A stretch of DNA of 64,000 nucleotides from NCBI GenBank assembly GCA_000004985.1, contig GG738920.1. One strand, 5' to 3'. Each line of letters starts with the position of its first letter. Position 1 is the first letter of the stretch. Below, one piece after another: positions 55,713 to 59,198 of the stretch. A model generated the notes under the pieces. It was not told where the DNA came from and did no database searches. It worked only from the letters and a program-made list of their open reading frames with translations. The translations under genes and the position numbers were made by a program. This DNA comes from Naegleria gruberi. Its lineage: Eukaryota.

Positions 55713-58700
55713 CTAATAGAAATAAGAATTATCCATTCCTTCTGTCCATGAATCCACTTCTGAACATGTTGATTCTACTTCTGATTCATCTCCAGTCAAG
55801 TCATACAAGTCATCATCATCATTATAATTCTCATCATATTCTCCTTCACTATTTTCTTCAAGATTTTGAATTTCTTCATCCGAATCCACTCTAATTTCCT
55901 TCTCTTTCGTAGCAATCATTACCAGTTCCTTAAAGTTTATCCACCCAAAACTGAAAATATTGAACTGATTTTTCTCTGTATGAGTAATGTAATACCAGGC
56001 AGAGGCAATTGCCAATCGCTCACTCTCCCCATATTTCCTTACCATCTCTTCGAAAACATTCCTAAAATGTTTCAGGTAGAATGAAATGGTGATTGCAATG
56101 GTTTCGTGAATATCATGTTCCTTATGTCCAAAGCATTTGATATTGGTATTAATCCAACCTGAAATAATTTGTGATTCGTCCTCAACGCCATACTTTACCA
56201 TATCCGAGTTGACAAATCTACTGTAATTGTAATAATGTGGCTCTATTTCCTTCAAGTACTTGTCAAATCCGTCAACAATGAGTAATGAATTGTGCTTTTT
56301 GTTGCATTTTCCTGGTGTTTCATGTTTGAATTGTGTTTCATCAAATAGTTTTCCAAGCACTTTTTTAGACTTGTACTTTCTTTTCATAGAAGAAATCATA
56401 AAGTGTGGATATTCATATAATTTGACCTTTGATGGAATGATTGCAAATTTACCACTCTTGGCACTGTCTACAGCTGTTGAGTGAAGCTCACAAAGTGTTA
56501 AACATTCCTTCGATGTTAAACCATTTTTTCTAAAATCAGAATTAGCCAAATGAGTATTGGCAATCAATCCAAGATTATTTCTCGTAATAAACTCTATGAA
56601 AAAGTCTATAATATCATCTTGCTTAATCTTGTATTCTTCTTCCTCCTCGTCTTTTTTGTTTGTTGGTTTGGCTACAGCTCCAACTGAATAGTCCATTGGT
56701 TCAGAATCTGATTCAGGAATCAAGTCTGGATCCCAATAGACAAAAAATTGATCACCATCAAGATCTGAGCCTGTTATCATGTTTGTTATTGGCCTTTTTC
56801 CTTTCTTAGAAAATACCACAACATCATTTAAATGGTAAAGTTCTGGACGATCGACTGCTGTTACTATTCTCAAATCACCTTTATGTAGAGAAGGGTTCTT
56901 TCCAACAATACATCTTCCCTTAACTACTCCAAATTCAGCATTAGGTCTATGAAAGATAGGTGATAAATTAACAAAGATTTCATTTTCCTCCAAAACTCCA
57001 TACTCATCAATGGCTCCCATTAAATACGCTGATTTCTCAATATATATTTTAGTCTTGTCTCGTAATCCTTTCAATAATTGTTCCTTATATGAACTCAACA
57101 TATTCATGATAAAATTTTCTGATGTTGCAATTTCTGGTACATATTTAAGAACATGGCAAATAAATGTCCTTGTATGGTTGGAATGGTAAATCGACAGCCA
57201 TTCATAGGCCTTTGAGACATCGTCTGTTATACTAAGAATGGAACGTATCATTTCTCTCTGTTTTGTCATGAATATTTCATCCTTAATTCCAAGTGCTGTC
57301 AAAATTGTTATGAATTGTCTATTCAAAAATCCACTTCTCCTCTTTGAGTAATCCACAATTTCCAATTGTTTCTGTATTGAGGTAAATTTGAATTGACTCT
57401 TTCTGAAAACTATTTGTTCTCCTTTTAAAGTTGGATCTATTGCTAATACTCCCTTTCCTCCTCCACATCTAAATTGAATAGCTGATAGTAATGATTCTCC
57501 TAATTGAAGCTTTTCCTTTACTCGTTGCATCATTTCTTCACTTATCTTTCCAATACCATCTGTAAAAGTGAATCCATTTCTTTCAATATCTTCAACTGGT
57601 TCAATATCTTTAGTAATTTCAATTGATGGAGTTGTACTTGTTAAGCATTGTCCAAATCTTGCTGCAACCTTTGCAGGTGTTTTAATGTCAGTGAAATCTC
57701 CCATATAATCGAATGTCCTGTGGTGATGGTTTCAACTTGTTGTAATCTCTGAGGAAAAACCAACTTGACGAATTTCTTAATTGTGAAGATGAAAATCCAA
57801 GAAATTCCAATCGTTTCATGTCAGTAATCATTATACCTCTACTCATCAGTTGCTTGATACGATTGCTAATATTTCTGAACTCACTCGCGAACAGATTATT
57901 GAAATTATCATCTAAGAAATTAACTCTAAAAAAGTTTTCTCTACTTCCCCACTTTTTATCGGCGTATCTGATGACTAGATTTGTTTTATCAACCTCAGGA
58001 GGTAAAAAGTAAATCTTGGTAGGTGTTACAATGACCTTTTTGCACAGATTCACCTCTTGTGCAGAGTCTCCCTGCATTAATATAGAACGACTCATTTGTA
58101 ATTGGTAATCTTTTGAATTTAAATACGTTTCAATAGTTTCTTCCAAATTGTAAACTCTACTTGGATACTTGATTAAATAGTCAAAGTAAATCTTTTCCAA
58201 AAGGGTTCCCATTTTGATTTTGTACTCGTTTGATTCGTCTCCTTTTAACAATTCGAAAAATTTGTCACTATAATTGCATGGACTGAAAATACCATGACTT
58301 TCTAATACCAATAAATAATATTGAATATTGTAAAAGTCAAGTTTTCTAATCTTTTCCAAAGAGGAGTTTGAAATTTCAAACTTCTTGTGACAGAAATCAA
58401 TACTTTTGATTGGAACTGCCTCTATTTTCTCTTTCAATAACTCAAACAATTTTGGTATCTGCTTTTTGACATCCTGGAACAAACTCAATTTCAGTAAAAA
58501 CACCTGAGTAAGTCCAATGTCTTCAAAAAGAGTATTTGTTTCTTTGCAAATCCTTGCACGTGAGGTTGTTTTAAAATTTTCCATATACTGTTGTTCCAAC
58601 ATGAGTGGAATATTCTTTGATTCCAATTCCAAGAAGAATTTTCCAACAATCTAATTCCATTCTTAATAGTTGCCAAATTGAATCTTAATTCAAATAACTT

Positions 58701-59198
58701 TCCATCAAATTTAATATTCAATTTCAACATTCCATCATGATTTCTCAAATAATAATTTCGTTTTCTCTCTTTGAAATCCTTTGAAGCACCTTTCTCATAC
58801 ATAAATCGACTATAATTATAAAAAGTAGGCTTTTCCGATACGAGTGGATCATCTTTCCAATATCCAAAGCTAATGACATCAATATTCAATAGTGGACTTT
58901 GCTTTGGAGTGAATACTTTAAAGGCTTGTTTTTTTCCTCCCCTAGAATTTCCACCTCTTCCTCTTCCCCTAGAATTGCCACCTCTTCCTACTGATTGAGC
59001 ATTAGAAGATGATGGTGGTGGTGATGATGATTGAGTATTAGAAGAAGAGGATGCAGAGGAATTGTTTGATTGTTGAGTTCCCGAATTTGTGTTTACATTA
59101 TTTGAGGAGGAGGAAACATTTGTGGAAACTCGATTGGTTTTACCTCCCCGAGGATTGTTTTGTTGGGAGTGATGAGGACGGTTCCGATTATTATTCAT
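55713..59198 (-). CDS. cellular RNA-dependent RNA polymerase (RDR/QDE-1 family), reading frame disrupted, hence a possible pseudogene or assembly indel
   Basis: Catalytic DLDGD in ITGSDLDGDQFFVYWDPDLIP. Conserved SSSQLR...WFF and IR..MGDF..I...AKVAARFGQC blocks. The conserved IRxxMGDF block is split between frames by 1 nt at about 57705. A second frame change lies at 58491..58620, possibly a 47-nt GTATAT...CAAAG intron. ATG at 59196-59198. Confidence 0.55.

What the first reader, a model, noticed from the sequence alone, without database searches (positions are those of the whole stretch)
55713..59198. RNAi-type RdRP interrupted by frameshift(s)
The conserved IRxWMGDFxxIxxxAKxAARxGQ block is split between two reading frames by a single extra nucleotide near 57705 (cga tta t|atg gga gat ttc). 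A second frame change lies between 58491 and 58620. A 1-nt shift cannot be an intron. The options are a recent pseudogene of an RDR paralogue, programmed frameshifting (unlikely), or an assembly indel in a T/A run. A 47-nt GTATAT...AG intron could explain the second change but not the first.
Basis: seen in the sequence. Interest (0 to 1): 0.5.

Follow-up and report, generated by a model that had tools for sequence, protein, structure and literature searches.

The report
Frameshifted Naegleria RdRP gene (NaegRDR1c)
One ordinary RNAi-type RNA-dependent RNA polymerase gene of the amoeba Naegleria gruberi is broken in the reference assembly by two tiny deletions, so databases list it as two unrelated genes; it is either a very young dead gene or a sequencing error, not a new mechanism.

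Summary
The window is Naegleria gruberi NEG-M, shown by exact protein look-ups. On the minus strand, 59198-55713 holds one cellular RdRP gene, called NaegRDR1c in the literature. It is colinear with a 1168-aa N. fowleri homologue (41% identity) but read in three pieces, in frames 0, 2 and 0.

Junction 2 (57705-57702) is real. It fits best as loss of an 'AT' from TTATAT(AT)GGGA, not as an extra base. Adding AT gives DIRLYMGDF, which aligns without gaps to N. fowleri DIREYMGDF and Arabidopsis RDR2 DIREWMGCF. It also merges two Pfam hits into one full RdRP match.

The proposed 47-nt intron lacks the local splice signals and scores 11.7 bits worse on codon usage.

I found no frameshift-stimulating signals. 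There are no stop codons within the three segments, and the catalytic DLDGD motif is intact.

The reference annotates only the two ends (EFC37286.1 and EFC37285.1). The middle 312 codons are unannotated.

I could not reach independent reads, so a real recent lesion (about 0.45) and a consensus error (about 0.42) remain nearly tied. Interest is low.

The parts
58641..59198 (-). Segment A (frame 0), codons 1-186. It starts at ATG 59198-59196. It holds an S/N/RGG-rich low-complexity N-terminus (including a 27-nt repeat at 58938-58989) and then a beta-rich N-terminal domain with the motif ISFGYWKDDPL.
   Evidence: ORF list and three-frame translation. The motif aligns to N. fowleri LNFGVWNKNPL. 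TRF repeat. Annotated as the first 186 residues of EFC37286.1.
58632..58642 (-). Junction 1. This is the inferred site of a 1-nt deletion, in the A4 run at 58642-58639 of GGAAAATTCTTC. The reading frame changes from 0 to 2 here.
   Evidence: The frame-2 stop at 58653-58651 bounds it upstream. The codon-usage maximum-likelihood change-point is 58640-58632, scoring 35.6 bits. No homologue resolves the exact base.
57703..58638 (-). Segment B (frame 2), 312 codons (F188-Y499 of the repaired protein). It is unannotated in the reference. It holds the start of the RdRP catalytic domain (Pfam positions 1-93), including FLGFSSSQLR and DIRLY.
   Evidence: Pfam hit. About 40% identity to N. fowleri across the segment. 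Aligns to RDR2 residues 381-500. The exact ORF products are absent from the protein collection.
57702..57708 (-). Junction 2, sequence TTATATG. This is the inferred loss of one AT unit from TTATATATG. TAT (57705-57703, frame 2) and ATG (57704-57702, frame 0) overlap by 2 nt.
   Evidence: Sequence. The repaired DIRLYMGDF aligns without gaps to DIREYMGDF of N. fowleri and DIREWMGCF of RDR2. After repair there is a single Pfam match covering 1-581/582.
55713..57704 (-). Segment C (frame 0), a 663-codon ORF plus its stop. It is annotated as EFC37285.1 / XP_002670029.1 'RNA-directed RNA polymerase' and appears in the literature as NaegRDR1c. It has an acidic C-terminal tail.
   Evidence: Exact look-up. 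Pfam positions 110-581. Matches RDR2 residues 502-1113 in PDB 7eu0/7roz. Supplement of PMC4791657.
56751..56765 (-). Catalytic DLDGD motif (the DxDGD metal-binding loop), intact.
   Evidence: Motif located by script. The function of the motif is established knowledge of the family.
58491..58640 (-). Out-of-frame read-through of frame 0 after junction 1. It gives 49 non-native codons (NSSWNW...RCFY) and the stop TAA at 58493-58491. These form the C-terminus of the reference model EFC37286.1.
   Evidence: Codon-usage score for 58650-58589 is 4.4 bits in frame 0 against 13.8 bits in frame 2.
58542..58588 (-). I consider it rejected.
   Evidence: It restores the frame. However, it lacks G at +5, lacks a YAG acceptor and has no TAAC-like branch site, unlike the nine local introns. 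Its model scores 23.9 bits against 35.6 bits for the indel model. It would remove NFKTTSRARIC, which matches N. fowleri NVSNRSVSRIC.

Best explanation
This is a single, ordinary cellular RNA-dependent RNA polymerase gene, NaegRDR1c, one of ten RDR homologues of Naegleria gruberi.

Normal function (established knowledge of the family, not tested here): the enzyme copies aberrant single-stranded RNA into double-stranded RNA. Dicer then cuts that into siRNAs. Catalysis runs through a DxDGD metal-binding loop.

In the sequenced NEG-M DNA the gene carries two slippage-type micro-deletions. One is -1 nt in an A-run at about 58640. The other is -2 nt (AT) in a TA repeat at 57705-57702. As written, translation from ATG 59198 gives 186 native residues, then 49 out-of-frame residues, then a stop at 58493. 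No polymerase is made. On this reading the locus is a very young pseudogene, or a null allele of a heterozygous diploid.

What is shown and what is inferred:
- Shown: gene identity, colinearity with homologues, positions of the two frame changes, absence of intron and recoding signals.
- Inferred: the exact deleted bases.
- Not shown: that the lesions exist in the organism rather than only in the consensus sequence.
For: - Identity: the 663-aa ORF is exactly EFC37285.1 and is NaegRDR1c in the supplement of PMC4791657. That supplement lists 10 NaegRDR sequences.
- One gene: the N. fowleri homologue aligns colinearly over 1005 columns at 41% identity across junction 2. The repaired protein gives one Pfam RdRP hit covering 1-581/582 at 535.6 bits.
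- A 2-nt loss in a dinucleotide repeat is a typical replication-slippage mutation. It is an atypical base-calling error (my own knowledge).
- The assembly is otherwise clean where I could check it. There are 0 indels in about 5.2 kb of flanking coding sequence compared with a 96-99% identical strain from ENA metagenome ERZ929261.
- At the 110-codon threshold I used, three overlapping same-strand ORF transitions in the 64-kb window lack a canonical intron. They are the two RdRP junctions and one in the adjacent orphan region. The others are explained by GTAHGT...YAG introns.
- The same gene in the ENA strain carries its own +1 frameshift and a 9-nt deletion in the N-terminal region.
- Family redundancy (10 paralogues) makes loss of one copy tolerable.
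Against: - There is no premature stop codon inside any of the three segments (3.4 kb, 67% A+T). The catalytic DLDGD motif is intact. Any inactivation must therefore be very recent.
- N-terminal divergence from the ENA strain is 6 synonymous to 6 nonsynonymous changes (rough dN/dS about 0.3). The gene was under constraint until recently.
- The adjacent orphan region on the + strand (53.85-55.6 kb) also shows unexplained frame switches. That would fit a locally poor consensus.
- No independent read, EST or second assembly covering 57700-58650 could be reached.
Confidence: 0.45

Rival explanations
1. Consensus artefact. The gene is intact in the organism. The two micro-deletions are errors of the 8x Sanger draft consensus, for example from low local coverage or from misaligned reads of two divergent haplotypes. 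The true product would be a functional RdRP of about 1162 aa.
For: - No stop codons inside the segments, and all conserved motifs are intact.
- Both sites are simple-sequence contexts, an A-run and a TA repeat.
- The neighbouring + strand orphan ORFs at 53.85-55.6 kb also switch frame without any canonical donor. Frame breaks therefore cluster in about 5 kb.
- The locus is unusually divergent between strains: 4.1 substitutions per 100 nt against 0.2-0.7 in flanking exons. This could mean divergent haplotypes in a heterozygous diploid (PMC9928731).
- N-terminal dN/dS is below 1.
Against: - Two errors in one gene would be required.
- One of them is a 2-nt loss, which is unusual for Sanger consensus errors.
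- There are no gaps (N runs) anywhere in the window.
- There are 0 coding indels in about 5.2 kb checked against an independent strain.
- No other gene in the window shows an unexplained frame break at the 110-codon threshold used.
Confidence: 0.42
2. Junction 1 is a real 47-nt spliceosomal intron (58588-58542). On this reading only junction 2 is a lesion, whether real or artefactual. This is a sub-variant that can combine with either explanation above.
For: - The interval restores the frame and gives a stop-free 1146-aa product once AT is added at junction 2.
- 47 nt is a typical local intron length. Verified local introns are 38-164 nt, including one of 47 nt at 30777-30731.
Against: - The donor is GTATAT and the acceptor is AAG. 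All nine local introns have G at +5 and a YAG acceptor, and most have a TAAC-like branch site.
- There is no GTAHGT on the minus strand anywhere within the gene.
- The intron model scores 23.9 bits against 35.6 bits for the indel model. Frame 2 scores 13.8 bits against 4.4 bits for frame 0 across 58650-58589.
- The intron would delete residues that match N. fowleri.
Confidence: 0.08
3. Programmed recoding. The lesions are genomic but are bypassed during expression. This would need a -1 shift at G GAA AAU and a -2 shift at U UAU AUG, or transcriptional slippage, yielding full-length RdRP.
For: A -2 slip of tRNA-Tyr on UUAUAUG would re-pair perfectly (UAU to UAU). It would give exactly the ancestral LYMGDF sequence (my own reading of the sequence).
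Against: - There is no canonical slippery heptamer at either site.
- The 100 nt downstream of each site fold no better than shuffled sequence (z = -0.11 and -0.17).
- Two different non-standard shifts would both be needed.
- The N. fowleri homologue is a single ORF.
- The A4 and (TA)2 runs are too short for efficient polymerase slippage (my own knowledge).
Confidence: 0.02
4. Split gene. The three ORFs are expressed as separate polypeptides that assemble into, or replace, a single-chain RdRP. This is what the reference annotation implies with its two models.
For: Segment C happens to begin with ATG. The reference lists EFC37286.1 and EFC37285.1 as separate proteins.
Against: - That ATG is the conserved Met of the WMGDF motif, so its presence is coincidental.
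- Segment C starts at Pfam position 110/582, which corresponds to RDR2 residue 502. It therefore lacks the first part of the catalytic domain.
- The middle segment has no independent promoter or intergenic space.
- The last 49 residues of EFC37286.1 are out-of-frame read-through.
Confidence: 0.02

Closest known systems
Naegleria fowleri RdRP (P0001, 1168 aa, 'unnamed protein product')
   Same: It is colinear over 1005 alignment columns at 41% identity. It shares the N-terminal RGG/S-rich region, the FGxW...PL domain, the DIR-x-Y-MGDF block and a full Pfam RdRP match. It is closer to NaegRDR1c than the N. gruberi paralogues RDR1a/1b are (34% identity).
   Different: It is a single uninterrupted ORF as annotated. 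Orthology was not tested by synteny, because its locus could not be fetched.
Plant RDR1/RDR2/RDR6-type cellular RdRPs (Pfam PF05183; Arabidopsis RDR2 structures 7eu0, 7roz)
   Same: The catalytic domain matches at full length. The DxDGD loop is present. The alignment across the IRxWMGxF...AKxAARxGQ block has no gaps.
   Different: No RRM domain is detected at the N-terminus. Instead there is a low-complexity RGG-rich region followed by a Naegleria-specific beta-rich domain. The reading frame is broken twice.
NaegRDR1c as used in Bollmann et al. 2016 (PMC4791657), and reference models EFC37285.1 + EFC37286.1
   Same: This is the same locus. The 663-aa sequence is identical.
   Different: The published and annotated entity is only the C-terminal 57% of the gene. 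The N-terminal 186 codons are filed as an unrelated 'predicted protein'. The middle 312 codons are not annotated at all.
Natural loss-of-function RDR alleles in laboratory strains, e.g. Nicotiana benthamiana RDR1 with a disrupting insertion (recalled from my own knowledge, not checked here)
   Same: It would be an RNAi-amplification polymerase inactivated by a small lesion in a widely used laboratory lineage, where paralogues cover the function.
   Different: In N. benthamiana the lesion is an insertion carrying stop codons, and it has been verified experimentally. Here there are two micro-deletions, and they are unverified in reads.
Programmed frameshift genes (antizyme +1, Euplotes +1 at stop codons, arterivirus -2)
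   Same: A conserved protein is encoded across two frames.
   Different: There is no shift-site motif, no stimulatory RNA structure and no conservation of the shift in the homologue. Two different shifts would be needed.

Membership tests
Eukaryotic cellular RdRP (Pfam PF05183) | Full-length match to the RdRP domain profile above the gathering score | tested here: met
   The pieces score 54 bits (positions 1-93) and 464.3 bits (positions 110-581). After repair there is one hit covering 1-581/582 at 535.6 bits, against a cut-off of 23.8.
Eukaryotic cellular RdRP (Pfam PF05183) | Catalytic DxDGD metal-binding motif | tested here: met
   DLDGD at 56765-56751.
Eukaryotic cellular RdRP (Pfam PF05183) | One uninterrupted ORF encoding the whole domain | tested here: not met
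   The domain is split between frame 2 and frame 0 at 57705. The N-terminus is in a third piece.
Eukaryotic cellular RdRP (Pfam PF05183) | RNA-templated RNA synthesis | not testable with these tools
   This needs a biochemical assay.
Spliceosomal intron of the local N. gruberi type (tested for junction 1, 58588-58542) | GTA[A/T/C]GT donor with G at +5 | tested here: not met
   The candidate donor is GTATAT. Nine local introns have GTAAGT, GTATGT, GTACGT or GTAGGT. There is no GTAHGT on the minus strand between 55713 and 59198.
Spliceosomal intron of the local N. gruberi type (tested for junction 1, 58588-58542) | YAG acceptor | tested here: not met
   The candidate ends in AAG. All local introns end in CAG or TAG.
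Spliceosomal intron of the local N. gruberi type (tested for junction 1, 58588-58542) | Removing it improves coding signal and homology | tested here: not met
   The intron model scores 23.9 bits against 35.6 bits for an indel at 58640-58632. The intron would remove NFKTTSRARIC, which matches N. fowleri.
Spliceosomal intron (tested for junction 2) | A GT...AG interval whose removal keeps the conserved residues | tested here: not met
   The frame-restoring intervals I examined (a 19-nt GTTGAA...CACAG, and 223-325-nt intervals starting at 57884) delete DIR or FLGFSSSQLR...AKVAA, which are conserved in N. fowleri and RDR2.
Programmed ribosomal frameshift | Recognised slippery or shift-prone site | tested here: not met
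   G GAA AAU and U UAU AUG are not X XXY YYZ heptamers or known +1 sites (sequence; my own knowledge of the motifs).
Programmed ribosomal frameshift | Downstream stimulatory RNA structure | tested here: not met
   z = -0.11 and -0.17 against 200 shuffles for the 103-104 nt downstream of each site.
Programmed ribosomal frameshift | The shift is conserved in orthologues | tested here: not met
   The N. fowleri homologue is annotated as one continuous 1168-aa protein.
Pseudogene | Frame-disrupting lesions relative to intact homologues | tested here: met
   Two frame changes relative to N. fowleri and RDR2.
Pseudogene | Further decay: premature stops, lost motifs | tested here: not met
   There are no stops within the three segments. 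DLDGD is intact, and the Pfam score is close to that of N. fowleri (535.6 against 551.7 bits).
Pseudogene | Relaxed selective constraint | tested here: inconclusive
   Only 294 nt are comparable with a second strain. Divergence there is 4.1% with two indels, but the changes are 6 synonymous to 6 nonsynonymous, and the region is low-complexity.
Pseudogene | Lesions present in the organism's DNA, not only in the consensus | not testable with these tools
   No reads, ESTs or second assembly of 57700-58650 could be reached.

The most novel reading that the evidence does not exclude
The two lesions are genuinely in the genome, yet a full-length RdRP is still produced by recoding. This would need a -2 tRNA-Tyr re-pairing slip on UUAUAUG, which would regenerate exactly the ancestral LYMGDF, plus a -1 event at the A-run. 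That would make it a cellular gene dependent on two non-canonical frameshifts.
Probability: 0.02. Interest if true: 0.65.

Novelty: already known. Interest (0 to 1): 0.18.

Why it matters
The practical value is in curation.
- The N. gruberi reference annotation, and at least one published RNAi-gene phylogeny, use a truncated 663-aa 'NaegRDR1c'.
- A 235-aa 'predicted protein' is really the N-terminus of that gene fused to 49 out-of-frame residues.
- About 312 codons of the catalytic domain are unannotated.

If the lesions are real, the standard laboratory strain NEG-M carries a natural null allele of one of its ten RDR genes. That is relevant to anyone trying to set up RNAi in Naegleria, and to counts of functional RNAi components. 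If they are consensus errors, the reference needs a 3-nt fix and merged gene models. Neither outcome changes what is known about RdRP biology.

Tried and rejected
1. Independent sequence of the two junctions.
- Exact look-ups of the 663-aa ORF, three start variants of the middle ORF, an intron-spliced model and the neighbouring ORFs found only the two reference models.
- Two homology searches returned no near-identical fragment from another assembly.
- A full HMMER scan with the middle ORF also returned none. Its best hit was 35% identical.
- A scan of JGI metagenome contigs found nothing.
- The one ENA contig that reaches the gene (L001) ends at window position 58905, before junction 1.

2. 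The N. fowleri locus, wanted for synteny and intron positions, is not on record.

3. Homology for the neighbouring orphan region, to test whether frame breaks cluster, gave no hits.

4. Intron explanations.
- I enumerated all frame-restoring GT..AG intervals at junction 1. None has local splice signals.
- The 19-nt and 223-325-nt intervals at junction 2 remove conserved residues.

5. Frameshift-stimulating RNA structure was not found.

6. A tRNA-like stretch upstream of the start codon (59243-59313) has no ARAGORN or Rfam support.

7. The N. gruberi genome paper is not held in the library. Other papers gave no statement on this gene's integrity.

8. Cluster members P0012-P0014 of the 663-aa protein are unrelated short peptides and not useful.
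Full report
**Source and identity.** The window is uniformly about 33% G+C and gene-dense. Exact look-ups of window ORFs return Naegleria gruberi strain NEG-M proteins on one 218,836-bp scaffold. The 663-aa minus-strand ORF at 57704-55716 is EFC37285.1 / XP_002670029.1, 'RNA-directed RNA polymerase'. The 235-aa ORF at 59198-58494 is EFC37286.1, 'predicted protein'. The supplement of Bollmann et al. 2016 (PMC4791657) lists ten N. gruberi RDR homologues. It uses this same 663-aa sequence, starting at MGDF, as 'NaegRDR1c'.

**Checking the observation.** Three minus-strand ORFs tile 59198-55713. They are in frame 0 (to the stop at 58493-58491), frame 2 (58632-57688) and frame 0 again (57704-55713). 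Pfam RdRP (PF05183) positions 1-93 lie in the middle ORF and positions 110-581 in the last ORF. Because the first and last pieces share a frame, the two shifts sum to 3 nt.

**Junction 2.**
- The sequence reads GAC ATT CGA TTA TAT GGG AGA TTT CAC TGA in frame 2, and ATG GGA GAT TTC in frame 0.
- Adding 'AT' (TTA TAT ATG GGA) gives DIRLYMGDFTDIKTPAKVAARFGQ.
- This aligns without gaps to DIREYMGDFSSIKNAAKCAARIGQ of a 1168-aa N. fowleri protein. That protein is 41% identical over 1005 alignment columns.
- It also aligns without gaps to DIREWMGCFRKIRSISKCAARMGQ of Arabidopsis RDR2, from solved structures 7eu0 and 7roz.
- The repaired 1162-aa protein gives one continuous Pfam match covering 1-581/582 at 535.6 bits. 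N. fowleri scores 551.7 bits.
The parsimonious event is loss of one AT unit from a (TA)n run.
- The frame-restoring GT..AG intervals I examined here remove residues conserved in N. fowleri and RDR2.

**Junction 1.** Frame 2 is closed by TAG at 58653-58651, and frame 0 runs on to 58493. I used three lines of evidence to place the switch.
1. Codon usage. A model trained on 13 long ORFs of the window recovers the 0/2/0 frame pattern of the gene. Its maximum-likelihood change-point is 58640-58632, scoring 35.6 bits. That is the A4 run in GGAAAATTCTTC. Across 58650-58589, frame 2 scores 13.8 bits and frame 0 scores 4.4.
2. Splice signals. Nine introns recognisable in the window are 38-164 nt. They begin GTAAGT, GTATGT, GTACGT or GTAGGT, end in CAG or TAG, and mostly carry a TAAC-like branch site. 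The candidate begins GTATAT, ends AAG and has no such branch site. No GTAHGT occurs on the minus strand anywhere in the gene.
3. Homology. Weak matches to N. fowleri (SKNIP to SKLSP, and NFKTTSRARIC to NVSNRSVSRIC) are read in frame 2 from 58620 onward. The second match lies inside the putative intron.

I conclude that junction 1 is a 1-nt deletion at about 58642-58632. The intron reading retains about 0.08.

**State of the gene.**
- There are no stop codons within any of the three segments.
- DLDGD is intact at 56765-56751.
- The N-terminal segment belongs to the ancestral protein. Like N. fowleri, it has a low-complexity RGG/S-rich start followed by an FGxW...PL domain.
- NaegRDR1c is not a recent duplicate. 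The paralogue fragment RDR1a is 34% identical to it, while N. fowleri P0001 is 41% identical overall.
- The 663-aa annotated model starts at the equivalent of RDR2 residue 502 and at Pfam position 110. It therefore cannot be a complete polymerase on its own.

**Programmed recoding.** The roughly 100 nt downstream of each junction fold no better than shuffled sequence (z = -0.11 and -0.17). Neither site is a recognised slippery motif. Two different shifts would be needed. The homologue has a single ORF. One curiosity is that a -2 slip of tRNA-Tyr on UUAUAUG would re-pair perfectly and recreate LYMGDF. This follows simply from the lesion sitting in a TA repeat. I give recoding about 0.02.

**Real lesion or consensus error?** I could not reach independent sequence of 57700-58650. 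An ENA metagenome assembly (ERZ929261) holds a 96-99% identical Naegleria strain.

Against that strain, flanking coding sequence shows 0 indels in about 5.2 kb and 0.2-0.7 substitutions per 100 nt. The one apparent exception, at 49816, lies upstream of the start called in the other strain. Intergenic DNA shows many indels. The NEG-M consensus is therefore generally sound.

The only part of the RdRP gene present in that strain is the first 294 nt. It differs by 12 substitutions (4.1%), a 9-nt deletion and a +1 insertion. The insertion breaks the frame from the NEG-M start codon, although an alternative ATG is open in that strain. The substitutions are 6 synonymous and 6 nonsynonymous, a rough dN/dS of 0.3. 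This argues for constraint until recently, and for a locus that is unusually polymorphic rather than long dead.

| For a real, recent lesion | For a consensus artefact |
|---|---|
| Two lesions in one gene | No stops and no motif loss |
| One is a 2-nt repeat-slippage event | Both sites are in simple sequence |
| No N-gaps in the window | The adjacent orphan region on the + strand (53.85-55.6 kb) also switches frame with no canonical donor, so frame breaks may cluster locally |
| No other unexplained frame break among the window's genes | Naegleria is a heterozygous diploid (PMC9928731), and divergent haplotypes can corrupt a Sanger consensus |
| A second strain with its own frameshift in this gene | |
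| Ten-fold paralogue redundancy | |

I put a real lesion (young pseudogene or null allele) at 0.45 and an artefact at 0.42.

**Comparison with what is known.** This is an ordinary member of the eukaryotic cellular RdRP family. The gene is already in the databases and the literature, in truncated form. What this analysis adds is curation. The two reference models and an unannotated 312-codon middle are one gene. The C-terminus of EFC37286.1 is out-of-frame read-through. The lesions are -1 and -2 nt at defined sites. Novelty: already known. Interest: low (0.18).

**Side observation.** The minus strand at 24822-25768 carries a striking array. There are 16 consecutive short introns, mostly 42-61 nt, separated mostly by 3-nt micro-exons. 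The pattern YAG-NNN-GTAWGT occurs 16 times in the window against 0.96 expected by chance. Thirteen of those occurrences are in this array. It deserves its own follow-up.

Noticed in passing
window 24822-25768, minus strand (a weaker, irregular version at 39965-41101, minus strand): An array of 16 consecutive GTAAGT/GTATGT...YAG units, mostly 42-61 nt, separated by micro-exons of 3 nt (13 cases), 6 nt or 9 nt. Apart from one unit that contains a normal 87-nt exon, all micro-exons are multiples of 3. Examples are cag|TAT|gtaagt and tag|GAA|gtaagt. YAG-NNN-GTAWGT occurs 16 times in the window against 0.96 expected from shuffles, and 13 of those are in this array. The units are not a tandem repeat (TRF finds nothing). 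One unit holds an ankyrin-like exon (TPLCVSCQRGNEELVRMLLDCNRTDVNQG). The array leads into ORF 24730-23492. It could be an extreme micro-exon gene or a set of recursive-splicing-like sites. A library search found no report of this for Naegleria.
   Followed up: partly
window 53850-55609, plus strand: The RdRP's downstream neighbour is an orphan region with no Pfam or homologue hits. Its open frames chain through all three frames. For example, 54468-55022 and 54980-55609 overlap by 43 nt. There is no GTAHGT donor on the + strand between 51146 and 58508. The codon-usage-preferred frame switches several times. It may be another frameshifted or decayed gene, or a sign of a locally poor consensus.
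   Followed up: partly
window 58491-59198 and 55713-57704 (reference models EFC37286.1 and EFC37285.1): The reference annotation splits one gene into a 235-aa 'predicted protein' and a 663-aa 'RNA-directed RNA polymerase'. The last 49 residues of the 235-aa model are out-of-frame read-through. The middle 312 codons are unannotated. A published phylogeny uses the truncated form as NaegRDR1c. In that same data set NaegRDR1a also starts at the equivalent LGNF position.
   Followed up: yes
L001 (= window 60697-58905) and L002 (= window 45417-49919): ENA metagenome assembly ERZ929261 (run ERR1078381, project PRJEB11402) contains a Naegleria strain 96-99% identical to NEG-M. Flanking exons differ by 0.2-0.7% with no indels. 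The RdRP N-terminus differs by 4.1%, with a +1 and a -9 indel. That gives a synonymous divergence roughly four times that of a nearby gene.
   Followed up: partly
window 59379-61126, minus strand: The upstream neighbour is EFC37287.1 (550 aa). It has an arginine ADP-ribosyltransferase-like N-terminal half, then repeated CxCxCG..DPDC cysteine motifs and a C-terminal hydrophobic segment that looks transmembrane. One 98-nt intron (60213-60116) joins the two halves.
   Followed up: partly
window 20114-23290, minus strand: Two ORFs of 528 and 529 aa abut with no spacer. A stop at 21704-21706 is followed directly by ATG. A GTATGT donor at 21713 with a CAG acceptor at 21603 (111 nt) would splice across the stop and join them into one gene.
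   Followed up: partly
window 8506-9121: A 72-nt tandem repeat of 8.6 copies at 86% identity lies inside the minus-strand ORF 8501-9631. This would be a 24-residue protein repeat.
   Followed up: no
window 26461-26531, minus strand: This is the only tRNA in the window: tRNA-Gly(TCC). It lies between the micro-exon array and the 1397-aa ORF.
   Followed up: no
window 59243-59313: An intergenic block just upstream of the RdRP start codon is well conserved between the two strains and looks superficially tRNA-like (GTTCAATTCC...ACCA). ARAGORN and Rfam give no hit.
   Followed up: yes
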